DNA of 41,702 nt from a virus, in IMG/VR virus record IMGVR_UViG_3300034655_000019; one strand, written 5' to 3'. The notes under the pieces are model-generated. The model was not told the DNA's origin. It did no database searches and saw nothing but the letters and a program-made list of their open reading frames with translations. Shown in pieces: positions 8,191 through 30,995 of the stretch. The translations under genes were made by a program, and so were the position numbers. Each line of letters starts with the position of its first letter. The stretch's first letter is position 1.

Positions 8191-8512
8191 GTGATTGCCG
8201 TTGCTGGTAAGTGTCGCTTATATGTTGCCTAAGTGTCTGCTGTTTGCGCCTAAGATTATGAATAAATTCAGCAGGTTAGTTTTAAGTTGCACTTTGAGAA
8301 TGCGTGTTTTAATAAAGGGGTAGGCGAAGCGATAGCGGCCTATTCTGCACAGAAGTCGCTCGGATTCTTGCCCAGGGCGTGCGTCGTGTTTTTATAGAGG
8401 TGTGCTGATTTGAGCATTATTTCGGGTAAACGGCGGTGCCCAGTAGGATCACTACCAAGCGCATAAACCCGCTTAGCAATTTTCCATTAGCGTCATGCGG
8501 TGTAGTATGATG

Positions 8513-8528
8513 CTGTATGTATACACAG
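8513..8528. promoter_or_regulatory. LexA (SOS) box
   Basis: CTGTATGTATACACAG = CTGT-N8-ACAG, 14/16 to CTGTATATATATACAG. Lies immediately after the TATGAT hexamer (8506-8511). Confidence 0.7.
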
Positions 8529-8568
8529 TTTTTAGGTGTGCGCAAACGCGCGCCGGGGAGGCGACACA

Positions 8569-8781
8569 ATGAGCGAGCAGCAGGGAACGACGCAGCGATA
8601 TAACACTAACGTACTGGTAGGCATTAACCAGCGCGATACGCTGCAGAACATTGATGTGATGATGGAATTTATGCAGGTGACCGGCGAAGAGTCGCACGCG
8701 GGCAGCCACATGATTCTAGCCATGGTGCGCGATGCGCTGGGGCATGAGCTGCAGCGCGCGGGCAAGCACGGCCCCCACTAG
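8569..8781 (+). CDS. Small (70 aa) hypothetical protein downstream of the LexA box; candidate SOS-inducible antirepressor
   Basis: ATG 8569 with GGAGG RBS 8 nt upstream. Product MSEQQGTTQRYNTNVLVGINQRDTLQNIDVMMEF...; no family recognised. Confidence 0.55.
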   Translation: MSEQQGTTQRYNTNVLVGINQRDTLQNIDVMMEFMQVTGEESHAGSHMILAMVRDALGHELQRAGKHGPH

Positions 8782-8948
8782 CCCCGCATTCACTCAGGCC
8801 CGGAGCGTTTTGAGAAAATTTTTTTAACACAGTTCGTGTCAAAACGCTTTTGGGATGCTAGGATTGGCAAACAGTGAATTGATGACCACCGCCGGACGGC
8901 GTTGGTTGGAAGGCAAAAAAGACATACAAATTAACTAGATAGACACCC

Positions 8949-8978
8949 AAAAGAAAAGCCCCAGTTGGCGCTGGGGCT
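8949..8978 (-). terminator. Orphan minus-strand rho-independent terminator inside the repA leader
   Basis: AGCCCCAG-ttggcg-CTGGGGCT 8-bp stem; the minus strand continues TTTTCTTTTGGG. No minus-strand CDS feeds it. Confidence 0.6.
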
Positions 8979-9035
8979 TCTCGGATGTTTTGGGCAGCAG
9001 ACTCTTAAGACTGGGCACAAAACCGACTCCCAAGA
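8949..9035 (-). ncRNA. Candidate antisense (CopA-like) countertranscript of the repA leader; 5' end not defined
   Basis: Terminator above plus a second imperfect stem-loop (ACTCTT...AAGAGT, 9000-9037). Only a weak -10-like TTAAAC near 9040-9045 on the minus strand. Confidence 0.3.
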
Positions 9036-9084
9036 GTTTAACTGTTGCACGAAGCGCGGGCAAGTCTCTACAGAGATTTTGCAA

Positions 9085-10050
9085 ATGGATGCTGCAGCAG
9101 AGAACGCGCAGCCCCTCACGTGGGGGCGCGTGCCGTACGAACACCCAGGCAAGTGGTGGGGCACTGGTAACCGGTGTGGCCACGACCCCGCTAAAGGGGA
9201 ATTTGACCGCTATTGCCAACCGCTGAAAAAGGGCAGGCTACCCGCCACCCTGCAGGCGTTGGTAGACGGTGCAAAAGCCTACTACACCAGCCCCGGCTTA
9301 TTACCCACCCTGGCCAATCTGAATGGCAAGGCCAACGCCGATGGCAACCCCCGTTGTAACCGATCCGAGGCCCGCGCCGCTGAGTCGCTGGTGCTTTCTG
9401 CCATCATTCAGTTTACCGAGTTCGCCAGCCTGCGGGTGGGCACCCCGCTAGCCGATGGTGGTTTCAAGCACCGCAGCTGCGCTGAAATTGCCCGCGTGGC
9501 GGGCCTGCTGGCACCCGGCAGCACACCAGAAGCCCCCGAGCCTAGCCAACGCTTTTGGCGCGCCTTCCGGCGCTTGAAGCTGGCTGGCGCGTTCACCGTG
9601 CATTTGCAGCATGAAGTCAAAGCCGACGGCACGAAGCGGGCGCGGCCTGCTGTGAAGCTACTCAACCCGGATTTTCTGCTGGCGCTGGGGCGTGTGGGCT
9701 ACCAGAAGTTTAAGGAGTTCCGCGACTGGTGCAGCAACCGCATTAAGAAAGCCCGCCGTAAGCACCGCGAACAGCACCCCAAGGCGTACGACGCCGCCCA
9801 GGCCCGTAGCCGCCTAGCGATGGCAGGCAGCGGCCCCAGAGCGATGCAGAAGCAGCGCCGGGGTAAGAAGGATCTACCCGACGCCAACGATGAAAAAGAA
9901 CTGCAGCGCCGCTATAACCAAGAGGCAAACGCCTACTTTGCCCAGGTGGTGCGCGATAACCCCGGTGCCAGCCATGCCGAGGTGAACAAGCTGGTGCGCA
10001 TCAAGTACCCGCCGTATGAAGAGTGGCTAGACCGGCAGCGACGTTACTAG
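9085..10050 (+). CDS. repA: Plasmid replication initiator, IncFII RepA-like
   Basis: By-eye colinearity with R100/R1 RepA: SEARAAESLVLSAIIQF..RSCAEIARVAGLL..RFWRAFRRLKLAGAFTV, then a basic C-terminal tail. First ATG in the frame is at 9085. An ori-like region lies directly downstream. Confidence 0.6.
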   Translation: MDAAAENAQPLTWGRVPYEHPGKWWGTGNRCGHDPAKGEFDRYCQPLKKGRLPATLQALVDGAKAYYTSPGLLPTLANLNGKANADGNPRCNRSEARAAESLVLSAIIQFTEFASLRVGTPLADGGFKHRSCAEIARVAGLLAPGSTPEAPEPSQRFWRAFRRLKLAGAFTVHLQHEVKADGTKRARPAVKLLNPDFLLALGRVGYQKFKEFRDWCSNRIKKARRKHREQHPKAYDAAQARSRLAMAGSGPRAMQKQRRGKKDLPDANDEKELQRRYNQEANAYFAQVVRDNPGASHAEVNKLVRIKYPPYEEWLDRQRRY

Positions 10051-10235
10051 CCCGCTGCTAACCCCACCTAAAAACGCCACATAGCGCCCACGCCGGGCGC
10101 ATCGCCCGTGGTTAAGCGTTGCCCTGCCCTCACTTCCCCGCCTGTTTTAGCGCCGCGCTGGCGCAAAATCTCCCCGATCTAAGCCCGATAACACCCCCGG
10201 AAAGCCCAAACCCCGCCGCTGATTCGAACCCCCTT

Positions 10236-10340
10236 TAAAGATGTAAAATTAAGTGATTTGAAAATAGAATTAGGTAATATGAGATTAAATTAGCTGTACA
10301 CCGTTAATATGCTTCTCTTATGTAATTAAATAGGTTCAGC
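10236..10340. other. oriV AT-rich tract (candidate DNA unwinding element)
   Basis: About 105 bp, strongly AT-rich (aaagatgtaaaattaagtgatttgaaaatagaattaggtaatatgagattaaattag...) in a GC-rich replicon, next to a DnaA box. Confidence 0.6.
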
Positions 10341-10361
10341 TAACCCCCACTAACGTGGGGT

Positions 10362-10370
10362 TTATCCACA
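10362..10370 (+). promoter_or_regulatory. DnaA box, perfect consensus TTATCCACA
   Basis: Exact 9-mer read at 10362-10370, flanked by hairpin CCCCAC-taac-GTGGGG. Confidence 0.7.
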
Positions 10371-10390
10371 ATGCCCGCGCAAGCGCGGAA
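10371..10390. repeat. ori palindromic repeat copy 1 (ATGCCCGCGCAAGCGCGGAA)
   Basis: CCGCGC-AA-GCGCGG palindrome; second copy 53 bp away. Confidence 0.7.
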
Positions 10391-10423
10391 GCTCTTTTAA
10401 GGGCACAAGGTCAAGGGCTTTAA

Positions 10424-10443
10424 ATGCCTGCGCAAGCGCAGAA
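10424..10443. repeat. ori palindromic repeat copy 2 (ATGCCTGCGCAAGCGCAGAA)
   Basis: Differs from copy 1 at two symmetric positions (C:G to T:A), preserving the palindrome. Confidence 0.7.
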
Positions 10444-10671
10444 CCGCTCTACACTGACGCCCAGCCCTGCCGGGCTGGTTGTCCCAGGGGTTGCACCCCT
10501 GGACCCCGCTAAAAACCACCCCAAACCCCGTTTAGCAGTGGCAAGGGGTGCCGCATAGTTGGGCGGGCTAACGCCCGTTCGCCGCGCAGGTATAATTCCT
10601 GTTTATAGTTCAGTGGGCGGCTTGCATGTCGCTAGCGCGACATAACCCACAACCCCCGGTAAACTAAGCGC

Positions 10672-10956
10672 ATGACGCTACCGCCTTCCCTTCCCCGCAC
10701 GCTTGCCCAACTGCAGGCCACCACTTGCACGCACTGCAACGGCCACGGCTTTACGCATGGGCTTTTTCACCGCTTCCCATGCGCTGCGTGTGCCGAGGTG
10801 GGTTATGTGCAGCACCCAGGCAGCCGCCGGTTAGATCGCTTGGCCATTGGCGTGATTGCCCGCACCCGATCACAGCAGGCAGCGGCCCACGCCCGGCGTC
10901 AAAACACCGGCACGCCGGATAACTGGATACTCAAAAACAATTTCCGGGGTGATTAG
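10672..10956 (+). CDS. Small zinc-finger protein (DnaJ-type CxxCxGxG motif)
   Basis: CTHCNGHGF and CAACAEVGY motifs; perfect TATAAT at 10591-10596 upstream. Confidence 0.45.
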   Translation: MTLPPSLPRTLAQLQATTCTHCNGHGFTHGLFHRFPCAACAEVGYVQHPGSRRLDRLAIGVIARTRSQQAAAHARRQNTGTPDNWILKNNFRGD

Positions 10957-10999
10957 CGGCTGCTATAGTGGGAATATGTCACGCTAACAGGTGCCCGCT

Positions 11000-11272
11000 A
11001 TGCCCCGCCCCAAGCAAATGAACGCCGATGAAGTGGCCACGTGGTTAGCTGTGCTGCTAGATGCTGCCTTTGACCCCGCCCACGATGCCGTAGAACAGCA
11101 AGGCAAGGCCCAACTGCTGGCGCTGGCCAGCGACTTTACCCACTACCCCGACGATTACCCGGACGCCCGCCGGGCTGAATTGCTATTGCGGTGGGTGTCG
11201 ATCTGGCTACCCGGCGAATGGTGGCAGCGGTTGCAGGGCCGGGTAAGAAAGCGGCGTTCACGTGGCGCTTAG
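11000..11272 (+). CDS. Hypothetical protein
   Basis: ATG 11000 with AGGTG 7 nt upstream (the track starts at GTG 10991); 90 aa. Confidence 0.4.
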   Translation: MPRPKQMNADEVATWLAVLLDAAFDPAHDAVEQQGKAQLLALASDFTHYPDDYPDARRAELLLRWVSIWLPGEWWQRLQGRVRKRRSRGA

Positions 11273-11916
11273 TGTGCCTTTTCGCGCATAGCCCGCTTTA
11301 CCTTTTTCACAGTGGTTTCACCGCACCCGGCTAGCTCGCAAATGCGCGCCGTGGTGAACGGTTTGCCTTCACCATCGCGGGCGTTCAATAGCGCTTCAAT
11401 TCGCTGGTGTAGTGCCTTGTTGGGCCGCTTGCCCTGGTACTTGCCTTCCTTCTTTGCTTGCTCTATCCCCTGGCGCTGGCGCGTTCGCCGGTCGTCGTAG
11501 TCTTTGCGGGCTACCGCTGCGAGTACGTCTAGCATCATGGTATTCAGCGCATCGAGCATGCGGGCGGTAAAATCCTCGCCCTGGCTGGGCGTGGCCATGG
11601 CTGCGTAGCTAGTGGGAAGGTCCAGCGACACCACCCGTAACCCTAGCGCCTCAATCTGCCCCCGCAGGTGCCGCCACTCTGCCGCCCCCAGGCGGGAAAG
11701 ACGGTCTACCGATTCTATCAGCAGCACATCACCTTGCTTGGCATCTTCCAGAAGCCTCCTGAGTTCTGGGCGCTGGCTGCTAGCGCCGCTCACATTCTCG
11801 ATATACCAGCTCACTACCTCACGGCGATGTTCAGCGGCGAAGTGTTCTAGCGTGCTGCGTGCCCGCTGGGCGTTCTGTTCTGCCGTGCTGGCGCGTAGGT
11901 ATCCCCTGACGTACAT
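11269..11916 (-). CDS. Serine recombinase (resolvase/invertase family), probable multimer resolvase
   Basis: N-terminal YLRASTAEQ catalytic-Ser motif, DRLSR motif, C-terminal HTH FTTARICELAGCGETTVKKV. Confidence 0.85.
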   Translation of the reverse strand: MYVRGYLRASTAEQNAQRARSTLEHFAAEHRREVVSWYIENVSGASSQRPELRRLLEDAKQGDVLLIESVDRLSRLGAAEWRHLRGQIEALGLRVVSLDLPTSYAAMATPSQGEDFTARMLDALNTMMLDVLAAVARKDYDDRRTRQRQGIEQAKKEGKYQGKRPNKALHQRIEALLNARDGEGKPFTTARICELAGCGETTVKKVKRAMREKAH

Positions 11917-11938
11917 GCGTTCCCCCTGGCGGTGTTTT

Positions 11939-11983
11939 GGGCGTTTTGGGTGGGCAGTTTAGCAGGTGGGCGTTTTGGGTGGG
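11939..11983. repeat. Two perfect 16-bp direct repeats GGGCGTTTTGGGTGGG (11939-11954, 11968-11983) upstream of the resolvase
   Basis: Read directly; a third degenerate copy GGTGTTTTGGG is at 11931-11941. Confidence 0.75.
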
Positions 11984-11996
11984 GGTTTGGCTAAAA

Positions 11997-12014
11997 CGCC
12001 TGATTGATCAGGCG
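11997..12014. repeat. Inverted repeat CGCCTGAT-TG-ATCAGGCG (candidate recombinase site)
   Basis: 8-bp perfect arms, 2-bp centre. Confidence 0.6.
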
Positions 12015-12052
12015 GGCCACCAGTGGGCGCTTAGGGAGTACCTAAAGTGACG

Positions 12053-12090
12053 TGTAGCTAAAAGCTATACGTGTATAGCTTTTAGCTACA
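12053..12090. promoter_or_regulatory. 38-bp near-perfect palindrome (18-bp arms), candidate TA operator
   Basis: TGTAGCTAAAAGCTATAC-GT-GTATAGCTTTTAGCTACA, ends 5 bp before an extended -10. Confidence 0.6.
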
Positions 12091-12095
12091 TGGCG

Positions 12096-12104
12096 TGTTA
12101 TAAT
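12096..12104 (+). promoter_or_regulatory. Extended -10 promoter element TGtTATAAT
   Basis: Perfect TATAAT (12099-12104) preceded by TGt. Confidence 0.55.
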
Positions 12105-12301
12105 CTTATCGTCGTCGCATTCCGTGGCGACTCGAAGGCGAGCTGAACGCGACCTTTCGAACATAAAAAAGGAGAGCAACCCATGCAACCAACTCAACAA
12201 GGCGCTACCGAGCCCATACGATAATCGCCTTGCAGGCAGCAACAAGCTGCTTAGCAAGGCTAAGGAGAGAAACACCCTTAAACAGCGATAGGACATACAT
12301 C

Positions 12302-12607
12302 ATGAAAAGCACAGCTGCTGAGGCAGTGGCTAAGCCACTGGCCCTCAATATGCGTGTTGACCCTAAAAAACGCGCCTTGATCGATAGAGCCGTAGCGGAG
12401 CTGGGGGGAGACCGAACCAGCTTTATAGTTGAAGCCGCCTGTAGACGCGCCGAAGATGTTTTGATGGATCGACGTTACTACATGCTGGATGAAGACGACT
12501 ACGCGTTCTTCGAGCAGGCCATTAACAAGCCTATATCGGAGAGACCGTGTCTACAGAAACTTTTACGAAAAGTCCCTTCATGGGAGTCAGTGCACCCGAA
12601 CGCCTAA
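12302..12607 (+). CDS. DUF1778 RHH antitoxin (TacA/AtaR/KacA type)
   Basis: LNMRVDPKKRALIDRAVAELGGDRTSFIVEAACRRAEDVLMDRR closely parallels TacA; overlaps the toxin gene. Confidence 0.85.
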   Translation: MKSTAAEAVAKPLALNMRVDPKKRALIDRAVAELGGDRTSFIVEAACRRAEDVLMDRRYYMLDEDDYAFFEQAINKPISERPCLQKLLRKVPSWESVHPNA

Positions 12608-13062
12608 CGCAAGAGCATGACTTGTCAGCTTTCGACTGCGATAAGTCTTCACTCAATGGCTTTTTAAAAGAGCGAGCGTTAGAAAATACTGCAACCAAAG
12701 CGACAATTACCTACGTGGTGTGCCGCCCAGGAACAAAGCAAGTGGTCGGCTATTTTAGCGTTTGTCCTGGCGGCGTTGATCGAAACGAATTGCCGGGCAA
12801 ATATAAGAAAAACATGCCGAGCATGGTGCCTGTCATCATTCTAGCGAGGCTTGCAATAGATAATTCTATTAAGGGCAATGGAGTTGGTCAGGATTTATTG
12901 CAGGCCGCGTTACTGATGGCTATTGAAAGCTCTTACCACATGGGTGCAGTGGGTATGATGGTTAATGCTGCCGATGATGCGATAGATTTTTATCTAAAGC
13001 ATGACTTCGACGCTTTCCCAAAAGATCCATCGAAGCTAATCACCTCGCTGAAGCTAGAGTGA
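12580..13062 (+). CDS. GNAT acetyltransferase toxin (TacT/AtaT/KacT type)
   Basis: MGVSAPERLTQEHDLSAFDC..., NMPSMVPVIILARLAIDNSIKGNGVGQDLL, colinear with Salmonella TacT. Start at ATG 12580 rather than GTG 12547. Confidence 0.85.
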   Translation: MGVSAPERLTQEHDLSAFDCDKSSLNGFLKERALENTATKATITYVVCRPGTKQVVGYFSVCPGGVDRNELPGKYKKNMPSMVPVIILARLAIDNSIKGNGVGQDLLQAALLMAIESSYHMGAVGMMVNAADDAIDFYLKHDFDAFPKDPSKLITSLKLE

Positions 13063-13075
13063 GATGTGTTTGCCA

Positions 13076-13098
13076 CCCCGCCACCCGGCGGGGTTTTT
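13076..13098 (+). terminator. Rho-independent terminator after the TA operon
   Basis: CCCCGCC-accc-GGCGGGG then TTTTT. Confidence 0.8.
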
Positions 13099-13163
13099 AT
13101 TTATATACCGTTATTTTCCTTGCCCGCTGCTTAGCCAGGTCATTAACCTGATTGATTGCGACG

Positions 13164-13189
13164 AAAAAGCCCGGCGCATAGGCCGGGCT
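13164..13189 (-). terminator. Rho-independent terminator ending the minus-strand par operon
   Basis: AGCCCGGC-gcatag-GCCGGGCT; TTTTT follows on the minus strand. Confidence 0.75.
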
Positions 13190-13196
13190 TGTTAGA

Positions 13197-13433
13197 TTAG
13201 GTGTACGTCTCAATGCTAAATTCCTTGCCCTCTAGGTTGCCTGCTTTCCATGCTTCCGCTTGGCAGGTGCCGAGCTTGTAAGGCATTGCGTCTAATTCGC
13301 CCTTTGGCTTTCCCGCTAAACGCCAGGCTAAGGTTGAGCGCATACCGTTCATGTGTTCGACACTGCGCGTGTGGGACTTCATAAACTCGTCTGCAATACG
13401 ATTGGCTTTTTGCCGATGCTCGATGGTGATCAT
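13197..13433 (-). CDS. Hypothetical protein
   Basis: 78 aa, followed by a terminator. Only a weak resemblance to the RMF-type motif (AG..G....PY......AW..G). Confidence 0.45.
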   Translation of the reverse strand: MITIEHRQKANRIADEFMKSHTRSVEHMNGMRSTLAWRLAGKPKGELDAMPYKLGTCQAEAWKAGNLEGKEFSIETYT

Positions 13434-13443
13434 ATTTTAGCCC

Positions 13444-13587
13444 TCAGTGAATACGCACGATGCGCTCTAACGCCCGCCTGCTAGCGGCCGGGCACTGGTA
13501 TAGGTAGGCGCACAGCAGGTGCAGCGGCAGCGTATGCAGCTGGTTTAACGGTGTGCGGGCAATCGTGGTATATTCGTTTGCTGACAT
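13444..13587 (-). CDS. Small hypothetical protein (47 aa; the track extends to 13644)
   Basis: ATG at 13587 (MSANEYTTIART...); the upstream extension looks non-coding. Confidence 0.3.
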   Translation of the reverse strand: MSANEYTTIARTPLNQLHTLPLHLLCAYLYQCPAASRRALERIVRIH

Positions 13588-13672
13588 GATAGCTAATCCC
13601 CATTGGTATTGTGTCGTTGCGTAACGCCCGCCCGGTCTAGCCACCGGGTGGGCGTTTTAGTGTGGCTCACTT

Positions 13673-14032
13673 TCAGAAGCTCACCAGCTCAAAGCCGTAG
13701 CGGGCTTTGAGGTCTTCGTGGTGCTGGTCCCACCACTCCTCATCTTTCCATGCCGCCCGGCCTTCGTAGCGGGCGGTAATGTCGTCTAGCATCGCGCCGA
13801 AGGCGCTTAACGCGTCTCGATAGCTGTTGTACGGCGCTTCCTGCAGGGTGAATCCCACTAGGGCGGGGCCGGTGTCGCAAGCGACCGCGACGGCATAGCC
13901 GCCTTCGCATGGGCCTATCGAGGTGCTTTCTAGCACGCTCTTATAGTGGTGCGACATAAGCTCGGCAATGGCGCACAGTGCCAGCTCATAGCTAGGTATC
14001 AGGCGGTCAAACTGCTGGATCTCATTGTTCAT
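13673..14032 (-). CDS. Hypothetical protein
   Basis: 119 aa, starts 3 nt after the parG-like stop; acidic/Trp-rich C-terminus. Confidence 0.5.
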   Translation of the reverse strand: MNNEIQQFDRLIPSYELALCAIAELMSHHYKSVLESTSIGPCEGGYAVAVACDTGPALVGFTLQEAPYNSYRDALSAFGAMLDDITARYEGRAAWKDEEWWDQHHEDLKARYGFELVSF

Positions 14033-14034
14033 GG

Positions 14035-14277
14035 CTAGCCCTTCCCTTTTTCCCGCTTGTACGCTGCCCAGGCTTCCTTGAGTACGTCCACCATTTGCAT
14101 GTCATGCTCTACGGCAAACGCTTTAAACTCCCGGCGCATTTCAGGATCAACGCGGAAATTCAGCGGCACCTTTTCGCCGCTTTCCGGTTTGCTGGTGTTG
14201 TTGCCCACTACCGGGCCGGGGGTGGCTGCCGTGGGCGGTGCGCCTTTGCTGCTGGGTTTCATGCTTGGCTTTGCCAT
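14035..14277 (-). CDS. Ribbon-helix-helix centromere-binding/regulatory protein (ParG/omega-like)
   Basis: Disordered basic N-terminus, then RHH pattern KVPLNFRVDPEMRREFKAFAVEHDMQMVDVLKEAWAAY. Immediately downstream of parA. Confidence 0.7.
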   Translation of the reverse strand: MAKPSMKPSSKGAPPTAATPGPVVGNNTSKPESGEKVPLNFRVDPEMRREFKAFAVEHDMQMVDVLKEAWAAYKREKGKG

Positions 14278-14298
14278 GGTGTTAGCTCCTGCGTTTTA

Positions 14299-14322
14299 GC
14301 GTGCTAGCGTTATATAACGCTT
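14299..14322. repeat. ATAACGC heptad locus A (GCGTGCTAGCGTTATATAACGC), between parA and the parG-like gene
   Basis: Contains the 14-bp perfect palindrome GCGTTATATAACGC (14307-14320) and the rc of ATAACGCTAGCACGC. Confidence 0.8.
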
Positions 14323-14965
14323 AATTAACAAGCGATTCAAAGCGGTTGATGATGTTTTGTATCAGTTCATCCGCTTGGGCCTTCGGGCCTTTGAATGGGG
14401 TTTCAACAATCGACAGCCCTTTATCTTGGGCTAATACAAACGCGTCGCGCTCGGGTACTTGGCCATCGAGTACAAAATAGGGCGTATGGGCGAGGTAGGC
14501 GCGGGCATCCTGCAGCTGCGTTTTACTCTTGCCCACTTTGCTCAGCGCGATGGCGATGCGCTCAATGGGTACGCCCTCTTGGCCGGTGAGTGTGTTGGCC
14601 AGCCTTACGGTGGGTTCAAGGTCGTCAACGCTTAACGCGGTGGGTAGAACGACGAGATCCGCAAGCCGGGCCACTTCGGCGGTGGCTTTGGTGGCATGGG
14701 GCGCGCCGTCGAAAATCATTAGGTCGTAGGTATCGGCTACCTTTAGAGCGCTGGCCACCGTGCCGAACGTCTCTACGGCCACCTCTGGCGTTACGCCGCT
14801 TTTGAGGCGGCGTTGTAACCAGGTGAAAGAGGTGGATTGGTTAATATCGAGATCCGCTATTTTTACATTCCAGCCCGCAGCGGCGTAGGTGGTGCCCAGC
14901 GCCCGGCTTAGGGTGCTTTTGCTGACGCCGCCCTTTTGGCTAACGAAGGCTATCTTGTGTCCCAT
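14321..14965 (-). CDS. parA: ParA partition ATPase (small type Ib, deviant Walker A)
   Basis: KIAFVSQKGGVSKSTL deviant Walker A; 214 aa without an N-terminal HTH; AAGGGGA RBS. Confidence 0.9.
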   Translation of the reverse strand: MGHKIAFVSQKGGVSKSTLSRALGTTYAAAGWNVKIADLDINQSTSFTWLQRRLKSGVTPEVAVETFGTVASALKVADTYDLMIFDGAPHATKATAEVARLADLVVLPTALSVDDLEPTVRLANTLTGQEGVPIERIAIALSKVGKSKTQLQDARAYLAHTPYFVLDGQVPERDAFVLAQDKGLSIVETPFKGPKAQADELIQNIINRFESLVN

Positions 14966-15005
14966 TGGTGTTTCCCCTTATATGTTCGTTGCGTTTTTGC
15001 GCGCT

Positions 15006-15116
15006 GGCGTTACAGCGTGAAATAACGCTAGCACGCAATAACGCTAGTATAGGAAAGCGCCGCTAGGGGTGCAAGATAAAACGCTATAACGCTAGCGTTA
15101 TTTAACGCTTGGCGTT
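15006..15116. repeat. ATAACGC heptad locus B, about 8 heptads in both orientations upstream of parA (candidate centromere/operator)
   Basis: GCGTTAC..AATAACGCTAGCACGCAATAACGCTAG...AAAACGCTATAACGCTAGCGTTATTTAACGCTTGGCGTT. Confidence 0.8.
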
Positions 15117-15124
15117 CAGGCAGC

Positions 15125-15148
15125 AAAAAGCCCGCGCGGTGGCGGGCT
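15125..15148 (-). terminator. Rho-independent terminator after the ORF6N gene
   Basis: AGCCCGC-gcggtg-GCGGGCT; TTTTT on the minus strand. Confidence 0.75.
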
Positions 15149-15171
15149 TGGGTGGGCTGGCGCGGGTGGGC

Positions 15172-15954
15172 TTACTGTTTGGCGAGTAAGCCGTTGTGGA
15201 TTAGCACTTGCTTGGCTATCGCTTTCCAGTTGGGGCGCTGGCCGATGTGGTGTTGGCCACCGGCTAGCTTGCTGATCCATGCGGTGTAGGGCTGGCCTTC
15301 GCCTACCACCTCTTTTAAAAACGACTGTTGGAAGTCATACCTAAAATCTTCGTATTGGCGCACCTTGGGGCGTAGGGCTTGGAGGCGTTCCATCACCGCC
15401 GGGAAGTCGTCCTGGCTTAAATCTTCGATGCGTTTTAGGCAGTAGTCGGTGCGGACGCCGTTGTAAAACCAGCCGGTGGCGCTTTGGCGCATGCCGTGGA
15501 AGTTGCGAAACACGGCGTTAGCCGCGTTGGTGAGCTGTTCGCGCTGGCGGTGGTCGATGGGCGTAGGGATGGGCTCGGCGGTGGTGGGCTGCATCGCGCC
15601 TTTGACGCGGAAATAGCTTTTGACGAGCTGGCGCTGCACTTGCCATGCGAGGTCGTCGGTAAACGATTTGACCAGCATAAGGTAGCCGGTTTCGGTCACT
15701 AGGTTGGTTGCCCGCGCCTTGGCTGGGAATAGGTCTGCGTAGCGCGTACGAAATTCGTACGCGCAACTTAATTCGATTGGGTGAAAGTCCTCGCCTTCAA
15801 TCATGTGGCGTTTGTTTTTATGGAAAGTACGTCGCGCTGTTCCTTCTGGCCGCTGGTGTACAGCGTCAATCATGGCGAAGGTAACAACGGGTTCGTTTTG
15901 GTATTCGATATAAGGCAGGGAGGTGCCAGAGATAGAAATGGTGGGTGTGTTCAT
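15172..15954 (-). CDS. ORF6N/KilA-N domain DNA-binding protein (antirepressor-like)
   Basis: EPVVTFAMIDAVHQRPEGTARRTFHKNKRHMIEGEDFHPI...TETGYLMLVKSFTDDLAWQVQRQLVKSYF fits the ORF6N pattern. ATG 15954 with AAGGAAG RBS; the track's upstream extension is rejected. Confidence 0.6.
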   Translation of the reverse strand: MNTPTISISGTSLPYIEYQNEPVVTFAMIDAVHQRPEGTARRTFHKNKRHMIEGEDFHPIELSCAYEFRTRYADLFPAKARATNLVTETGYLMLVKSFTDDLAWQVQRQLVKSYFRVKGAMQPTTAEPIPTPIDHRQREQLTNAANAVFRNFHGMRQSATGWFYNGVRTDYCLKRIEDLSQDDFPAVMERLQALRPKVRQYEDFRYDFQQSFLKEVVGEGQPYTAWISKLAGGQHHIGQRPNWKAIAKQVLIHNGLLAKQ

Positions 15955-16267
15955 TTTGGGGCTTCCTTTGATTTGAGGAAGTCCGCCGCATCGCTTCCAA
16001 CCGATGGTGGCGAACCGTACGCAGGTTGGAAGACCGGCCAAAGGTAACCGGCGCGCCGAAGCGCCCCACGCACGGCCCGCCATAGTCATCATGCGGGCAT
16101 AAAAAAACGCCTACACGATAAAACGGGGCGCTGTGCGCCTTTGGTTGCGGGCTTCCAAACCCGGTCGCTGATTTTGCAGCGACACGGGGAGAGTAGCGCT
16201 AGGGCGGGTGGGCGTCAATGGCTGGCCTCGCTGGCGCGCTTCATCGCGGCTAGGCAGCGGCGGCAGT

Positions 16268-18707: not shown

Positions 18708-19361
18708 TTAGCGTTCGTGCTCGATGATGGCGACGCGGCCGATGATGTTGAGCTGTTGTAGCTGCCCGGTGGTGAGGGTTTCATCCGGGTATTGGTGGCT
18801 GTTTTCGGCGCTCATGGTGTAGCTGCCGTTGATTTCCGGGCGTATCCAGCGCAGCCAAATGCGGTCGCCTACGAGGATGGCGAAGAGGTCGCGCACGGCA
18901 TCGGGCTTGCGGCTCATGTCGATTAGCGCTAAATCGCCCTTGCTGATAACCCCTTCCATGGCGTCATCTTCGGCTTTGACGGTGATAATACTGCTGGGTT
19001 TTAGCCCTTTTTCGGCTAGGTAGTCGTCGCGGTAGGCGGCTACATCGGTGGCGTTTTGCACGGTGATCGAGCCGCCACGGGTTTTAACCGTGGTGCGGTC
19101 TAGCACGACGTAGCTGCTGTCGATCATGCGGTTTGTCCAGCCGACAAAATAGCCGGGGTTGCAGCCAGTTACGTTGCCGATGTCTTCCAATTCTTGATAG
19201 CCGGGCATGCGAATGCCTAGCTCCCAGTTGGTATAACGAGAGCGCACGTAGCCGAGCGCTTCGACTGCGTCGCGGATCGACCACCCTAAGTGGGTGCGCA
19301 CTTCCACTAGTCGCTGTGCGATTAGCTCTTTTTTGTCCTGTCTGTCGCTTTGCTGTGACAT
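18708..19361 (-). CDS. CI-like repressor (XRE HTH + S24/LexA-like domain with apparently substituted catalytic dyad)
   Basis: N-terminal HTH (LGWSIRDAVEALGYVRSRYTNWELG). C-terminus aligns to UmuD/LexA/CI: VKAEDDAMEGVISKGDLALID versus [22 protein letters not shown], and RIWLRWI versus EFTVKKL. Confidence 0.8.
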   Translation of the reverse strand: MSQQSDRQDKKELIAQRLVEVRTHLGWSIRDAVEALGYVRSRYTNWELGIRMPGYQELEDIGNVTGCNPGYFVGWTNRMIDSSYVVLDRTTVKTRGGSITVQNATDVAAYRDDYLAEKGLKPSSIITVKAEDDAMEGVISKGDLALIDMSRKPDAVRDLFAILVGDRIWLRWIRPEINGSYTMSAENSHQYPDETLTTGQLQQLNIIGRVAIIEHER

Positions 19362-21724: not shown

Positions 21725-21870
21725 CTTCCAAAGCGGTTAACTGTGTATTCCGCGTGACCGTTTTGGAAGGCAGGAAGCCTAAGACGTTTTCTATGGTAGT
21801 GCCTGCCAGCACGACCAAGAAGGCAGCAAGAACAAGCGTTATCGCCCGCTTTGGGGCGCATCGAGTGGTA

Positions 21871-21903
21871 AGCGTGAAATAACGCTAGCACGCTATAACG
21901 CAG
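21871..21903. repeat. ATAACGC heptad locus D, upstream of the 21959 gene
   Basis: AGCGTGAAATAACGCTAGCACGCTATAACGC, about 30 nt shared with 15014-15043 (1 mismatch). Confidence 0.8.
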
Positions 21904-23517: not shown

Positions 23518-23563
23518 TTTAAAACGCTATAACGCTAGCGTCATATAACGCAATAACGCAACG
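23518..23563. repeat. ATAACGC heptad locus E, upstream of the integrase
   Basis: AAAACGCTATAACGCTAGCGTCATATAACGCAATAACGCAAC; the first 21 nt are shared with 15078-15098. Confidence 0.8.
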
Positions 23564-23621: not shown

Positions 23622-24890
23622 ATGCCTAAAACCCTCGCTGTTACCCTGTCTGATGCTGCGATTAAGCGGCACCTACCTGACCCTGATATTTTCCAGTTGC
23701 GCGACCCGCGCTACCCGGTGCGGGTGCGCTTTCATGCGAGCCGTGATCGTGCCAGCTGGTACGTGGTGCGCTACGCGGGCGGGCGTGGCCACTGGCACCG
23801 GGTGGGCAATTACCCGGAGTTGACGACCCGCGCTTTGCTGGCGCGTTTGCCTGAGTTGGAGGCCAAGCTGGCGCTTGACCCGGCGGGGCCGGTGGGCGTC
23901 GATGCGTGGGAAACCGTGGCCGACCTGCTGTGTTGGTATCGTGACCGTTCGGCTTCCCATGGCCGTTTATCCGCTACTCGAAAATCATCGATCAAAACCG
24001 CCGTTAATCGTCACTTGCTGCCCCTGTTCGGTGCCCGGCCGCTGGCGGGCATTACCCCGGCGTGTATCGACAGTGGCTTGGTGTGGCCGCTGCAAGAGCA
24101 TTATTCGGTGGCCTATGTGCGCCTGATTTTCGGGGTGATCAAGGCCGCGTTTAAGCAAGCCCGCAAGCTGAACCTGCTGGATACTGACCCCTTCGCTGGG
24201 GTGAATGTGGGTGATTTCATCGACGCAAAAACCCCAGCTAAGGCGGGGGCGCTGACCGCTTCCGATGTGCCTGATCTGATAAGCGCGTTGCGTTCGTGCG
24301 ATCCGCCGGGGTGTTTCCTGCTGTTGTTAATGCTGCTGTTTGGCACCCGTATTAGCGAGACGCGGCTAGCCAAGTGGGGGCAGTTCGATCTCGAAGCGCG
24401 CACGTGGACCATCCCCACCGACAACACAAAATCAAAGCGACAGCACCGCCTGCCGTTAACGCCCATGGCCGTGACGCTGCTAACCCGTTACCGCGCTTAT
24501 CAGCAAGCCAATGGTTACCGGGGAGTGTATTTGTTCCCTGGTGCATCGAAAGGTAAGCCGCTATCCCGTTCAGCCGTGTTTGATCTGGTGGTGAGTGCCA
24601 GTGGTGCGCGTTGGCATTCTCACGATCTGCGTAAGCTCGCCCGTACCACATGGGCTGACCTCGGGGTCGAGTATCTGGCCGGTGAGTTGTTGCTGAACCA
24701 TGCGCTATCGAAGCTCGACCGTACCTACATTCATACCTACGCTGAGCGGCAGATTCTCGATGCGTTGGAGCGCTGGCATACCTGGCTATGTGAGCGCGGT
24801 TTTAGCGTGTTTCTGACCGAGACAGAGCCGAGATTGTCGTTTTATCACAACAGCGACCAGCCCCAGTGGTGGCAAGGGGTGGCGGGGTAA
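23622..24890 (+). CDS. int: Tyrosine integrase, P4-type (DUF4102-like N-terminal arm-binding domain)
   Basis: GTRISETRLAKWGQFD, HDLRKLARTTWADLG, LLNHALSKLDRTYIHTY (R..HxxR..Y catalytic pattern). Confidence 0.85.
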   Translation: MPKTLAVTLSDAAIKRHLPDPDIFQLRDPRYPVRVRFHASRDRASWYVVRYAGGRGHWHRVGNYPELTTRALLARLPELEAKLALDPAGPVGVDAWETVADLLCWYRDRSASHGRLSATRKSSIKTAVNRHLLPLFGARPLAGITPACIDSGLVWPLQEHYSVAYVRLIFGVIKAAFKQARKLNLLDTDPFAGVNVGDFIDAKTPAKAGALTASDVPDLISALRSCDPPGCFLLLLMLLFGTRISETRLAKWGQFDLEARTWTIPTDNTKSKRQHRLPLTPMAVTLLTRYRAYQQANGYRGVYLFPGASKGKPLSRSAVFDLVVSASGARWHSHDLRKLARTTWADLGVEYLAGELLLNHALSKLDRTYIHTYAERQILDALERWHTWLCERGFSVFLTETEPRLSFYHNSDQPQWWQGVAG

Positions 24891-30993: not shown

Positions 30994-30995
30994 CC

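What the first reader, a model, noticed from the sequence alone, without database searches (positions are those of the whole stretch)
8500..15150. Full plasmid maintenance backbone inside a complete siphovirus genome (phage-plasmid)
Five plasmid modules are present. They are a RepA-like initiator with oriV, a ParA/RHH pair with repeat arrays, a serine resolvase with repeats, and a TacA/TacT-type addiction module. They sit in one block between the tail genes and the immunity region. No phage-type O/P, helicase, primase or protelomerase gene is visible, so both prophage maintenance and lytic replication may depend on the plasmid initiator. The combination with lambda-type head genes and a P4-type integrase is not a phage-plasmid group I recognise (P1, N15, SSU5 and VP882 types differ).
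Basis: partly seen in the sequence, partly recalled or inferred. Interest (0 to 1): 0.7.

Follow-up and report, generated by a model that had tools for sequence, protein, structure and literature searches.

The report
Phage-plasmid with a pRA2-type plasmid replicon
This circular 41.6 kb element is a complete tailed phage whose only recognisable replication system is a plasmid replicon, flanked by partition, dimer-resolution and addiction genes, and it belongs to a widespread but so far unnamed family of phages that live as plasmids in aquatic Gammaproteobacteria.

Summary
Between the last tail gene (ends 8043) and the immunity region lie: repA (9085-10050) with a downstream origin; a serine recombinase with upstream repeats; TacA/TacT; and a ParF-like ParA with a ribbon-helix-helix partner flanked by 8-bp repeat arrays.

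RepA has no Pfam, NCBIfam or PDB match. It is 46% identical to RepA of Pseudomonas plasmid pP27494_2 and distantly related to RepA of pRA2. It shares with those plasmids a leader hairpin, a conserved AT-rich origin core and a DnaA box.

The rest of the window is a complete lambda-head siphovirus. No O/P, helicase, primase or protelomerase gene was found.

The contig closes on itself through a 127-nt terminal overlap. Relatives with the same backbone are deposited as closed circular plasmids of Halomonas, Aeromonas and Edwardsiella isolates, and as stand-alone 36-43 kb contigs in other isolates.

The phage-plasmid reading is well supported. The element matches none of the ten defined phage-plasmid types. 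Unexpectedly, a tyrosine integrase is conserved across the family, and the par repeat unit recurs just upstream of it and co-varies with lineage.

Plasmid state, autonomous replication and infectivity remain untested for this element.

The parts
8569..8781 (+). Small conserved ORF (70 aa) directly upstream of the repA leader. It occupies the position that repB holds in pRA2. Function unknown.
   Evidence: Conserved upstream of repA in the Halomonas, Aeromonas and Edwardsiella plasmids and in Pseudomonas phage PARCL1pr. No detectable similarity to the small ORF upstream of pRA2 repA. The pRA2 layout is described in PMC5304414.
8953..8982 (-). Leader stem-loop of repA. On the + strand the loop reads UUGGCG. 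On the - strand it is an intrinsic terminator. Candidate terminator and target loop of a copy-number antisense RNA (the REx-C 'SaL 1' element).
   Evidence: Terminator scan finds 12 pairs followed by TTTTGGG. The hairpin is conserved at about -120 nt before repA in nine replicons. In 9 of 13 pairs both sides change and pairing is kept. It matches the description of SaL 1 in PMC5304414. The antisense RNA itself is inferred.
9085..10050 (+). repA, a plasmid-type replication initiator of the RepA-Pa family, distantly related to pRA2 RepA.
   Evidence: 46% identity over the full length to RepA of pP27494_2. 31% over 177 aa to pRA2 RepA. 176 PLSDB plasmids carry a match. phrog_20951 1e-33. AF2 model pLDDT 85.6 with one winged-helix domain. 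No significant PDB fold match.
10215..10450 (.). oriV. AT-rich core at about 10236-10345 containing the conserved TTAAGTG...TTAGGT...CACCGT..ATATGCTT string. DnaA box TTATCCACA at 10362-10370. Two AATGCC-hairpin elements at 10370-10395 and 10423-10448.
   Evidence: GC 0.30-0.36. Only perfect DnaA box in the window. The core lies 167-204 nt after the rep stop codon in P-Ps, pAsa6, pP27494_2, pRA2 and a Vibrio ICE. Hairpin repeats were found. The DnaA box downstream of repA is reported as essential in pRA2 (PMC1950889).
10672..11272 (+). Two small ORFs (94 aa with a CxxCxGxG motif; 93 aa) that follow the origin in the Halomonadaceae relatives. Function unknown.
   Evidence: Conserved after repA in L001 and L009-L011. 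phrog_5085 2.5e-10 for the first ORF.
11269..11916 (-). Serine recombinase, a candidate multimer resolvase.
   Evidence: Pfam Resolvase 3.5e-25. PHROG 'DNA invertase' 6e-41. Homologues occupy the same position in the Salinicola, Aeromonas and Edwardsiella elements.
11925..12015 (.). Candidate res or operator region upstream of the recombinase. It holds GGGCGTTTTGGGTGGG x2 plus partial copies, and the palindrome CGCCTGAT-TG-ATCAGGCG (11997-12014).
   Evidence: Three similar motifs at similar spacing lie upstream of the Salinicola homologues. Function is inferred.
12053..12090 (.). Perfect 18-nt inverted repeat, a candidate tacAT operator.
   Evidence: I8, 100% complementary, 2-nt spacer. It lies just before a TATAAT-like box and tacA.
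12302..13062 (+). TacA antitoxin (12302-12607) and TacT-type GNAT toxin (12547-13062), followed by a terminator at 13075-13094.
   Evidence: Pfam TacA1 5e-19 and GNAT hits above cut-off. PDB 5fvj 2e-30, plus matches to other GNAT acetyltransferase chains, one of them named KacT. Terminator. Absent from the H. qaidamensis relative.
14035..14965 (-). Type Ib partition operon: ParF-like ParA (14321-14965) and an RHH centromere-binding partner (14035-14277).
   Evidence: CbiA 5e-13, NCBIfam ParA_partition 7.5e-28 (below its cut-off), PDB ParF 6.6e-7, phrog_164 1.5e-33. RHH_10 6e-4, PrgO 5e-4, phrog_6024 1.7e-13.
14990..15109 (.). Array of ATAACGC(T) 8-mers, direct and inverted, upstream of parA. 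A second array lies at 14290-14321 between parA and the RHH gene. Candidate centromere and operator.
   Evidence: 17 copies against about 3.8 expected, clustered. Same positions in L001.
23529..23561 (.). The same ATAACGC repeat unit immediately upstream of the integrase gene. A further copy cluster lies at 21835-21901.
   Evidence: The unit co-varies by lineage: TTAACGA in the A. veronii plasmid and TAAAGAA in Aliivibrio phage H905. In both it lies upstream of parA, in the parA-RHH spacer and upstream of int.
23622..24890 (+). Tyrosine recombinase ('integrase') at the end of the early-right operon. It is conserved across the family. Its role is unknown: integration, multimer resolution or something else.
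   Evidence: Pfam Phage_integrase 1.4e-15. 81% identical in L001 and 43-45% in the Aeromonas and Edwardsiella elements. Homologues at 50% identity or more occur only on contigs of at most 43 kb.
15172..16196 (-). Context: P1 immI-like module. ORF6N antirepressor (15172-16092) preceded by C4 antisense RNA (16003-16087) and its a1/b1 targets (16144-16196).
   Evidence: Rfam RF01695 68.8 bits and RF03163 64.8 bits. Pfam ORF6N. PHROG anti-repressor 2.6e-39.
18708..19361 (-). Context: CI-like HTH/S24 repressor, the boundary of the immunity region.
   Evidence: Pfam Peptidase_S24 1.6e-9 and HTH_3.

Best explanation
The window is the complete circular genome (41,575 bp) of a temperate lambda-head siphovirus whose prophage is most likely kept as a low-copy circular plasmid.

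**Replication.** Replication starts at an origin 170-400 nt downstream of repA. The origin has an AT-rich conserved core, a host DnaA box and hairpin elements, and is fired by the plasmid-type initiator RepA (RepA-Pa / pRA2 class). repA expression is probably throttled by a counter-transcript that ends at the conserved leader hairpin. This would be antisense control, as proposed for the REx-C module of Pseudomonas plasmids.

**Maintenance.**
- A ParF-like ATPase and its RHH partner segregate copies through arrays of 8-bp ATAACGC(T) repeats.
- A serine recombinase probably resolves multimers at the repeat-rich site upstream of its gene.
- TacAT kills cells that lose the element.

**Lytic growth.** No phage replication module is present, so RepA/oriV probably serves lytic growth too.

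**Shown:** gene content, homologies, conserved cis elements, the circular assembly, and the plasmid state of close relatives.

**Inferred:** the plasmid state of this element, antisense control, resolvase function, and RepA-dependent lytic replication (about 50% likely).
For: - **Circular contig.**
- **Complete phage.**
- **RepA is a plasmid initiator family.**
  - 176 plasmids carry a match, and it is the sole Rep candidate on pAsa6 and pP27494_2.
  - 46% identity to the type member of the 'RepA-Pa' family and 31% to pRA2 RepA.
  - The pRA2 minimal replicon and its essential DnaA box are cited in PMC5304414 and PMC1950889.
- **Conserved replicon elements.**
  - The origin core and DnaA box lie at a homologous position in eight replicons.
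  - The leader hairpin shows compensatory changes and a minus-strand terminator.
- **Maintenance modules.** Par, TacAT and the resolvase.
- **Relatives with the same backbone.**
  - Closed circular plasmids in three complete isolate genomes.
  - Separate 36-43 kb contigs in at least 8 further genomes.
- **Family members form virions.** Plaque-forming Aeromonas phages carry distant RepA and ParA homologues (PMC8001559).
- **No phage replication genes.**
  - None found in the window.
  - The early-right operon of the Aeromonas relatives is only about 3 kb of small ORFs.
  - Unrelated chromosomal prophages that carry the same integrase clade at the same position do have DnaB- or IstB-type genes there.
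Against: - The window comes from a metagenome. No coverage, junction-read or host information is available, so a circular contig could also be an excised or replicating phage genome.
- A tyrosine integrase is conserved in the whole family, which is atypical for phage-plasmids (PMC12977533) and leaves room for integration.
- RepA has no structural or profile link to any biochemically characterised initiator. Its function rests on a distant relative (pRA2) and on distribution.
- orf188 (19774-20340), right after the cro-like gene, has a winged-helix N-terminal domain. It cannot be excluded as a novel phage initiator.
- The resolvase scores best as 'DNA invertase' in PHROGs.
- No antisense promoter was predicted by the consensus scan.
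Confidence: 0.75

Rival explanations
1. Facultative life style. The element is usually a plasmid, but the conserved tyrosine integrase lets it integrate into and excise from the chromosome. The RHH partition protein represses int through the par-type repeats in front of it, so the choice between plasmid and integrated state is regulated.
For: Int is conserved in all relatives. Int relatives at about 45% identity sit in chromosomal prophages. The par repeat unit recurs immediately upstream of int and co-varies in three lineages. Pfeifer et al. note P-Ps that may alternate between states (PMC7969092).
Against: All Int homologues at 50% identity or more lie on contigs of at most 43 kb. No tRNA or tRNA fragment suitable as attP was found. 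In the chromosomal prophages the int gene lies in the middle of the prophage, not at its end, so it may not be the integration enzyme there either. The repeats are absent upstream of int in PARCL1pr.
Confidence: 0.25
2. An ordinary integrative temperate phage. RepA/ori is its lytic replication module, borrowed from plasmids, and ParA and TacAT are morons. The circular contig and the 'plasmids' of relatives are excised or replicating phage DNA.
For: An integrase is present. The window is metagenomic, so its physical state is unknown. Plaque-forming Aeromonas phages described as lytic carry RepA and ParA homologues (PMC8001559).
Against: Three complete isolate genomes report the element as a separate closed replicon rather than inside the chromosome. 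Many draft genomes show it as a stand-alone contig. A full set of partition, resolution and addiction functions plus copy-control elements has no obvious use for an integrated prophage. The ParA/RHH pair and its repeats are backbone features conserved at 51-96% identity.
Confidence: 0.1
3. A plasmid that carries a defective, no longer infectious prophage.
For: No virions have been shown for this element. Some ORF starts and functions are unknown.
Against: All head, tail, packaging and lysis genes are intact and syntenic with relatives. No IS elements or pseudogene debris were seen. The tape-measure ORF is open across the circular junction.
Confidence: 0.07
4. The serine recombinase is a DNA invertase (Gin/Cin-like switch) rather than a multimer resolvase.
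For: The best PHROG is 'DNA invertase' (6e-41). The best NCBIfam hit is Mpi invertase, weak at 1.2e-9. Relatives are annotated as invertase.
Against: It sits inside the plasmid block, 3 kb from the tail-fibre genes. No pair of long inverted repeats flanks a plausible invertible segment. The direct-repeat-rich site upstream is conserved with the gene.
Confidence: 0.2

Closest known systems
pRA2 / 'RepA-Pa' replicons of Pseudomonas plasmids (pRA2 of P. alcaligenes; pP27494_2 of P. antarctica; REx-C + REx-R modules, Bardaji et al. 2017, PMC5304414)
   Same: Homologous RepA: 46% identity to pP27494_2 and 31% to the N-terminal half of pRA2 RepA. The same leader hairpin. The same origin core and hairpin elements downstream of rep. 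A DnaA box TTATCCACA next to the core, as in pRA2.
   Different: Here the replicon sits in a tailed phage and appears to be its only replication system. The DnaA box lies on the other side of the core and in the opposite orientation. The small upstream ORF is not detectably related to the small ORF upstream of pRA2 repA. Function was not tested here.
Unnamed circular 'plasmids' and phages with the same backbone: H. qaidamensis XH36 plasmid CP080628, A. veronii pWP8-S18-ESBL-11_1 (AP022265), E. ictaluri pEI-2083-2 (CP054061), Pseudomonas phage PARCL1pr (MZ496292), Aliivibrio phage vB_Alvi_H905 (PP986400)
   Same: The same gene order: tail - small ORF - rep - (serine recombinase) - RHH/ParA - left operon - CI | cro - short early-right operon - tyrosine integrase - lysis - head.
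   Different: Only CP080628 is close, at 82% nt identity over half of the 13-kb query, and it lacks the resolvase and TacAT. The Aeromonas, Edwardsiella and Aliivibrio members have P2-type contractile tails. PARCL1pr has HK97-type heads. H905 gave no RepA match in the search of phage records and carries an unassigned 361-aa ORF at the rep position. None is described in the literature held here.
N15 / VP882 / phiHAP-1 linear plasmid prophages
   Same: Temperate phages of about 40 kb kept extrachromosomally, some in marine hosts including Halomonas (PMC7969092). My recollection, not checked in the papers read here: they carry a partition system and a single RepA thought to serve both plasmid and lytic replication.
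   Different: No protelomerase was found in the window and the replicon is circular. RepA finds none of them among phage records. My recollection, not checked here: their RepA is a large multidomain primase-helicase type protein rather than a 321-aa one.
P1
   Same: A circular plasmid prophage. A C4 antisense RNA controls an antirepressor, and Rfam matches both the C4 family and its a1/b1 target family here. My recollection, not checked here: P1 carries a RepA-ori replicon, a par system, a site-specific recombinase for dimer resolution and an addiction module.
   Different: No DNA similarity to any phage record, and the RepA search finds no P1-type phage. ParA is the small type Ib form with an RHH partner, closest in PDB to ParF. 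The size is 41.6 kb. My recollection, not checked here: P1 is about 94 kb, uses a type Ia ParA/ParB pair, and has a separate lytic replicon (repL), for which no equivalent was found here.
TP228 ParF/ParG and pSM19035 delta/omega (type Ib partition with RHH centromere-binding proteins)
   Same: A small Walker ATPase with a PDB match to ParF at 6.6e-7, an RHH partner, and arrays of short direct and inverted repeats around the operon.
   Different: The RHH assignment is weak. The repeat unit is 8 bp and also occurs at distant promoters or intergenic sites, including upstream of int. This recalls omega as a global regulator (my recollection of the pSM19035 literature), but binding was not tested.

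Membership tests
Phage-plasmid (as used by Pfeifer et al., PMC7969092 / PMC12977533) | Complete set of temperate-phage functions (packaging, head, tail, lysis, lysogeny control) | tested here: met
   GpA terminase, gpW, portal, ClpP protease, gpD, capsid E, tail tube, tape measure, lysozyme, CI/S24 and an antirepressor.
Phage-plasmid (as used by Pfeifer et al., PMC7969092 / PMC12977533) | Plasmid-type replication and partition genes | tested here: met
   RepA of a plasmid Rep family. ParA with an RHH partner.
Phage-plasmid (as used by Pfeifer et al., PMC7969092 / PMC12977533) | Extrachromosomal maintenance during lysogeny | tested here: inconclusive
   The window is a circular metagenomic contig without host flanks. 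Close and distant relatives are closed plasmids of isolates. Depth and junction reads for this element are not available.
Phage-plasmid (as used by Pfeifer et al., PMC7969092 / PMC12977533) | Production of infectious virions | not testable with these tools
   Only indirect: plaque-forming Aeromonas phages carry homologous RepA and ParA.
Phage-plasmid (as used by Pfeifer et al., PMC7969092 / PMC12977533) | Typically lacks an integrase | tested here: not met
   A tyrosine integrase is present and conserved in the family. This is a tendency of the class, not a strict criterion (PMC12977533).
pRA2 / RepA-Pa replicon class (PMC5304414) | Rep protein homologous to RepA of pP27494_2 / pRA2 | tested here: met
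   46% identity, E 6e-95. 31% over 177 aa, E 2e-18.
pRA2 / RepA-Pa replicon class (PMC5304414) | REx-C control region: conserved SaL 1 hairpin flanked by A runs in the rep leader | tested here: met
   Hairpin at 8953-8982, conserved with compensatory changes, and a minus-strand terminator. SaL 2 and SaL 3 and the antisense promoter were not identified.
pRA2 / RepA-Pa replicon class (PMC5304414) | Origin elements downstream of rep, including a DnaA box | tested here: met
   Conserved core plus TTATCCACA. The box is reported as essential in pRA2 (PMC1950889).
pRA2 / RepA-Pa replicon class (PMC5304414) | Autonomous replication of the rep-ori fragment | not testable with these tools
   Needs cloning of about 8.1-10.7 kb into a non-replicating vector.
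Iteron-type RepA initiators (Rep_3: pPS10 RepA, F RepE, R6K Pi) | Rep_3-type tandem winged-helix protein | tested here: not met
   No Pfam or NCBIfam hit. No PDB sequence or profile hit. Foldseek gives only weak generic winged-helix matches, and the model has a single winged-helix domain.
Iteron-type RepA initiators (Rep_3: pPS10 RepA, F RepE, R6K Pi) | Array of 17-22 bp iterons at the origin | tested here: not met
   No tandem array in 10050-10670. There are only three loose AATTA(A/G)(G/C)T repeats in the core and two hairpin repeats.
Type Ib partition system (ParF/ParG-like) | Small deviant-Walker-A ParA without an N-terminal DNA-binding domain | tested here: met
   214 aa with a KGGVSKST motif. 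PDB ParF 6.6e-7 and ParA 5u1g 2.7e-7. CbiA/ParA profiles.
Type Ib partition system (ParF/ParG-like) | Ribbon-helix-helix centromere-binding partner encoded downstream | tested here: inconclusive
   An 80-aa ORF directly downstream. RHH_10 6e-4 and PrgO 5e-4, both below their cut-offs. No PDB hit.
Type Ib partition system (ParF/ParG-like) | Repeat arrays (centromere) next to the operon | tested here: met
   ATAACGC(T) arrays at 14290-14321 and 14990-15109. The unit co-varies with the proteins in relatives. Binding was not tested.
TacAT (GNAT toxin / RHH antitoxin) type II toxin-antitoxin | TacA/DUF1778 antitoxin followed by an overlapping GNAT toxin related to TacT | tested here: met
   TacA1 5e-19. 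TacT matches PDB 5fvj at 2e-30 and further GNAT acetyltransferase chains, one named KacT. The genes overlap by 61 nt, and an upstream palindrome is present.
Serine resolvase with res site (Tn3 / gamma-delta type) | Small serine recombinase catalytic domain plus C-terminal HTH | tested here: met
   Resolvase 3.5e-25. HTH_29 weak at 1.5e-3.
Serine resolvase with res site (Tn3 / gamma-delta type) | Adjacent res site with a crossover site and accessory sites | tested here: inconclusive
   A repeat-rich region and an 8-2-8 palindrome lie upstream, and the pattern is conserved in Salinicola. No recognisable Tn3-type subsites.
N15 / VP882 telomere phages | Protelomerase and a linear replicon | tested here: not met
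   No protelomerase in any Pfam, PHROG or NCBIfam scan. The contig is circular.
P4-type (CP4-57-like) integrases | Tyrosine recombinase catalytic domain | tested here: met
   PF00589 1.4e-15. phrog_1 5e-51. PRK09692 1.2e-13, far below its cut-off.
P4-type (CP4-57-like) integrases | N-terminal arm-binding domain, and attP adjacent to int matching a tRNA gene | tested here: inconclusive
   No N-terminal domain hit. No tRNA or tRNA-like sequence was found by ARAGORN. attP was not identified.

The most novel reading that the evidence does not exclude
The window represents a large, so far unnamed supergroup of about 36-46 kb phage-plasmids of aquatic Gammaproteobacteria (Halomonadaceae, Aeromonas, Edwardsiella, Pseudomonas, Vibrionaceae). 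In this reading:

- a plasmid replicon under antisense control is the phage's only replication machinery, in lysogeny and in lytic growth;
- head and tail modules are swapped freely around a fixed plasmid / immunity / integrase backbone;
- the RHH partition protein doubles as a regulator of a conserved mid-genome tyrosine recombinase, coupling segregation to a plasmid-versus-integrated (or multimer-resolution) decision.
Probability: 0.25. Interest if true: 0.7.

Novelty: new variant of a known kind. Interest (0 to 1): 0.55.

Why it matters
Phage-plasmids are recognised as important vehicles of gene flow, but the well-defined types are mostly enterobacterial (PMC12977533).

- This element and its relatives point to a distinct, broadly distributed lineage in marine, saline and fish-associated bacteria. 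Standard Rep profiles miss it, because RepA has no Pfam or NCBIfam model.
- It offers a compact model of a tailed phage that has replaced its own replication module by a plasmid replicon.
- It raises a testable link between partition proteins and a conserved integrase, in a class usually defined by lacking integrases.
- It extends the pRA2 / RepA-Pa replicon class from plasmids to phages and ICEs. This helps with annotating 'hypothetical' Rep genes, for example on Aeromonas salmonicida plasmids.

Tried and rejected
- **Megablast of 7-20 kb against phages.** No match.
- **RepA against Pfam, NCBIfam, PDB sequences and a PDB profile.** Nothing.
- **Foldseek of a good RepA model against PDB and BFVD.** Only generic winged-helix hits and one homologue. 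No link to RepE, Pi or ColE2 Rep could be made.
- **Iterons at the origin or in the early-right operon.** None convincing.
- **TAAGTGTC pair at 8208/8230 upstream of the small ORF.** It looked iteron-like but is not conserved in the closest relative, so it is left unexplained.
- **orf188 as a hidden lambda-O-like initiator.**
  - It has only 16 close homologues.
  - The AF2 N-terminal domain is a generic winged helix with E about 0.1 to CAP, ArsR and some plasmid Rep N-domains.
  - Neither confirmed nor excluded.
- **tRNA or attP search.** No tRNA found.
- **Integrated relatives.** The large Vibrio contigs carrying RepA turned out to be an ICE, not a prophage.
- **Chromosomal prophages sharing the integrase clade.** They share nothing else with the window.
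- **Literature.**
  - No paper mentions AP022265, CP054061, PARCL1pr, H905 or VPHZ6. The only paper that mentions CP080628 is a Halomonas PHA genomics study that I did not read.
  - The Pfeifer 2021 supplements are not held, so membership in their loose 'VP882' community could not be checked.
  - The circular Vibrio crassostreae phage-plasmid TG34 (PMC13230959) could not be compared, because no sequence is at hand.

Full report
**What the window is**

The first 127 nt are identical to the last 127 nt, and a long tape-measure-like ORF is open across the junction. The exact RepA protein is on record in an ENA metagenome assembly (ERZ27315309) on a k141 MEGAHIT contig of 41,716 bp. The window is therefore a circularly closed contig of 41,575 bp with no host DNA on either side. 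No tRNA gene is present.

**Phage part**

The phage gene set is complete.

| Function | Coordinates | Evidence |
|---|---|---|
| Small terminase (DUF1441) | 26682-27182 | |
| Large terminase (GpA type) | 27100-29256 | |
| gpW | 29268-29495 | |
| Lambda-family portal | 29497-30993 | |
| ClpP-type protease | 30732-32180 | |
| gpD decoration protein | 32218-32583 | |
| Capsid protein E | 32635-33639 | |
| Tail tube | 35210-36157 | |
| DUF1799 chaperone | 36742-37089 | |
| Tape measure | about 39.2 kb, across the junction, to 2423 | |
| Distal tail genes | up to 8043 | |
| Lysozyme | 25384-25974 | |

No sheath gene was found, so this is a siphovirus.

- **Immunity.** A CI-like HTH/S24 repressor lies at 18708-19361(-). 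An ORF6N antirepressor lies at 15172-16092(-), preceded by a C4 antisense RNA and its a1/b1 targets, which is a P1 immI-type module.
- **Early-left operon.** It carries RdgC.
- **Early-right operon (19.5-23.5 kb).** It encodes:
  - a cro-like protein;
  - two unknown proteins;
  - DUF1064;
  - a protein at the position of an antiterminator;
  - a MazG-like pyrophosphohydrolase;
  - a DNA methyltransferase;
  - then a tyrosine integrase at 23622-24890.

**The block in question (8.5-15.15 kb)**

1. **repA, 9085-10050(+).** The ATG start fits the length of the homologues. It has no Pfam, NCBIfam or PDB match and only an unannotated PHROG.
   - Homologues are abundant. Several sources call them 'plasmid replication protein repA'.
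   - tblastn finds the family on 176 PLSDB plasmids, among them 99 Pseudomonas, 50 Aeromonas and 9 Legionella records.
   - On the 18.5 kb plasmid pAsa6 and on the 30 kb T4SS- and relaxase-carrying plasmid pP27494_2 (typed mobilizable), which carry no phage genes, it is the only Rep candidate.
   - It is 46% identical over its full length to RepA of pP27494_2. Bardaji et al. named the 'RepA-Pa' family after that protein (PMC5304414).
   - It is 31% identical over 177 residues to RepA of pRA2, whose minimal replicon was defined experimentally (Kwong et al. 1998, as cited in PMC5304414 and PMC1950889).
   - The AF2 model is confident (pLDDT 85.6) and shows one winged-helix domain between a conserved N-terminal G-x-GN-x-CGH-x-P segment and a helical C-terminus. 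Foldseek finds no significant relative in PDB.

2. **oriV.**
   - GC falls to 0.30-0.36 at 10200-10350.
   - The only perfect DnaA box of the window is at 10362-10370. One 9-mer alone is not statistically strong.
   - The region aligns with the regions 167-204 nt downstream of rep in the Halomonas, Aeromonas and Edwardsiella elements, pAsa6, pP27494_2, pRA2 and a Vibrio ICE. It shares invariant TTAAGTG and conserved TTAGGT and CAC(T/C)GT..ATATGCTT strings, even though the Rep proteins are only 31-54% identical.
   - Four of these replicons have a perfect DnaA box directly on the other side of the core. In pRA2 that box is reported to be essential (PMC1950889).
   - Downstream follow 'AATGCC + hairpin' elements that are also shared.
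   - There is no classical iteron array.

3. **Copy control.** About 120 nt upstream of repA lies a GC-rich hairpin at 8953-8982.
   - The + strand loop reads UUGGCG.
   - On the minus strand it is a textbook intrinsic terminator.
   - It is conserved in nine replicons with changed stems. In 9 of 13 pairs both sides change and pairing is kept.
   - This matches 'SaL 1' of the REx-C control module, proposed as the terminator of a copy-number antisense RNA (PMC5304414).
   - The antisense RNA here is an inference.
   - A small ORF (8569-8781) precedes the leader in all phage-plasmid relatives. Its role is unknown.

4. **Serine recombinase, 11269-11916(-).** A conserved repeat-rich upstream region lies next to it, with an 8-2-8 palindrome at 11997-12014. 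Multimer resolution is the likely role. An invertase role is not excluded.

5. **TacA/TacT, 12302-13062.** This is a solid assignment. An operator-like perfect palindrome lies upstream. The module is absent from the closest relative, so it is accessory.

6. **ParA and its RHH partner, 14035-14965(-).** ParA is ParF-like. The RHH assignment for the 80-aa partner is weak. ATAACGC(T) arrays lie upstream of parA and in the parA-RHH spacer. There are 17 copies in the window against about 3.8 expected, and they are clustered.

**Absence of phage replication genes**

- Pfam, PHROG and NCBIfam scans of all early ORFs gave no O/P, DnaB/DnaC-type, primase, polymerase or protelomerase hit.
- The early-right operon has no iteron array or AT-rich patch.
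- orf188, in the position where lambda has O, is restricted to close relatives. It has a generic winged-helix N-domain of moderate confidence. It remains a candidate regulator or an unrecognised initiator.
- In the Aeromonas and Edwardsiella relatives the early-right operon is about 3 kb of small ORFs.
- Unrelated chromosomal prophages of P. palmensis and V. albus carry a 45%-identical integrase at the same map position. They do have HTH_36 + DnaB or an IstB-type loader in that operon.
- Together this supports the idea that the family relies on RepA/oriV, probably also for lytic growth. That last step is inferred, and I put it at about even odds.

**Relatives and physical state**

- The only nucleotide-level relative in the phage and plasmid collections is the 45.9 kb circular 'plasmid unnamed' of Halomonas qaidamensis XH36. 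It matches at 82% identity over half of the query. RepA is 88%, ParA 96%, CI 93% and Int 81% identical.
- The same backbone order is found in the following:
  - closed plasmids of A. veronii (37.2 kb) and E. ictaluri (36.7 kb);
  - stand-alone 36-43 kb contigs of Salinicola (two species), Kushneria, A. rivuli and several Pseudomonas isolates;
  - Pseudomonas phage PARCL1pr;
  - Aliivibrio phage H905.
- Around this backbone the virion modules differ. The window and the Halomonas plasmid carry a lambda head with a siphovirus tail. The Aeromonas, Edwardsiella and Aliivibrio members carry a lambda head with a P2-type contractile tail. PARCL1pr carries an HK97 head with a siphovirus tail.
- Plaque-forming Aeromonas myophages (AhyVDH1, Ahp2 and others) carry more distant RepA and ParA homologues that went unnoticed.
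- The phage-plasmid reading is therefore strongly supported for the family and, by extension, for the window. For the window itself, only the circular assembly speaks to the physical state.

**The integrase and the par repeats**

- The tyrosine recombinase is a backbone gene of the family.
- Homologues at 50% identity or more are found only on contigs of at most 43 kb. Homologues at about 45% also occur in chromosomes.
- The 8-bp repeat unit of the par locus recurs directly upstream of int, and it changes in step with the lineage.

| Element | Repeat unit | Positions |
|---|---|---|
| Window and Halomonas plasmid | ATAACGC | upstream of parA, parA-RHH spacer, upstream of int |
| A. veronii plasmid | TTAACGA | upstream of parA, parA-RHH spacer, upstream of int |
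| Aliivibrio phage H905 | TAAAGAA | upstream of parA, parA-RHH spacer, upstream of int |

- Further clusters lie at other intergenic sites.
- PARCL1pr does not show the pattern.
- The simplest reading is that the RHH partner of ParA also binds in front of int, much as the omega protein of pSM19035 is both a centromere-binding protein and a regulator (that comparison is my own knowledge). This is a hypothesis, but it is directly testable.

**Comparison with known groups**

- **P1 type:** no. There is no DNA match and no RepA match. Only the C4 RNA family is shared.
- **N15 / VP882 type:** no. There is no protelomerase and the replicon is circular.
- **Other defined types:** not SSU5 or any other of the ten defined phage-plasmid types (PMC12977533).
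- **VP882 community:** whether it falls into the loose 'VP882' community of Pfeifer et al. (PMC7969092) could not be checked.
- **Replicon:** it belongs to the pRA2 / RepA-Pa class known from Pseudomonas plasmids. A pRA2-type Rep had been noted before in a corticovirus-like prophage (PMC1950889), but I found no report of it in tailed phage-plasmids.

**Verdict**

This is a new variant within the known phenomenon of phage-plasmids. It is a member of an unnamed but widespread family with three notable features: a plasmid replicon as the apparent sole replication system, a conserved integrase, and par-type repeats at the integrase. Interest is moderate to fairly high.

Noticed in passing
window 23529-23561 and 21835-21901 (also 14290-14321, 14990-15109); L002 8652-8668; L093 18852-18876: The 8-bp repeat unit of the par locus recurs immediately upstream of the conserved tyrosine integrase. 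It co-varies by lineage: ATAACGC in the window, TTAACGA in the A. veronii plasmid, TAAAGAA in Aliivibrio phage H905. This suggests the RHH partition protein also binds there.
   Followed up: partly
window 16003-16196 (-) with 15172-16092 (-): A P1 immI-type module. C4 antisense RNA (Rfam RF01695, 68.8 bits) and its a1/b1 targets (RF03163) lie upstream of an ORF6N antirepressor. An isrK match overlaps the region.
   Followed up: no
window 37240-39142 (+): A low-GC insert (0.48-0.52) between the tail chaperone and the tape measure. It encodes a WYL-domain protein (472 aa) and a 163-aa ORF, and may be a defence or regulatory moron. The same pair sits at the same place in the H. qaidamensis plasmid.
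   Followed up: partly
L084 (P. palmensis) 10001-11278; L086 (V. albus) 10001-11251: Integrases 45% identical to the window's sit at the same unusual map position, at the end of the early-right operon and before the lysis genes, in otherwise unrelated chromosomal prophages. In the V. albus contig the gene lies in the middle of the prophage, not at its edge. This questions whether it is the integration enzyme.
   Followed up: partly
L007 / L008 10001-10894 (Vibrio maritimus and another Vibrio): The same RepA family, with the same origin core and DnaA box, sits at the edge of a chromosomal ICE (TraH, TraG, Integrase_1). The replicon class therefore serves plasmids, ICEs and phages.
   Followed up: partly
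window 8208-8241: Two TAAGTGTC motifs 22 nt apart in an AT-rich patch upstream of the small ORF. They resemble the TTAAGTGTCGGG pair in the pRA2 origin. All 5 TAAGTG copies in the window are on the + strand. The pair is not conserved in the closest relative.
   Followed up: partly
L001 25638-27319; L092 1-1533: The H. qaidamensis plasmid and a relative labelled Stutzerimonas xanthomarina carry a reverse transcriptase next to a four-helix-bundle protein or a DUF4376 protein near the tail-fibre genes. This looks like a diversity-generating retroelement. The window lacks it.
   Followed up: no
window 10672-10956 (+): A 94-aa ORF after the origin has a DnaJ-type CxxCxGxG zinc-finger motif and a weak anti-TRAP match. 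It is conserved after repA in the Halomonadaceae relatives. Function unknown.
   Followed up: no
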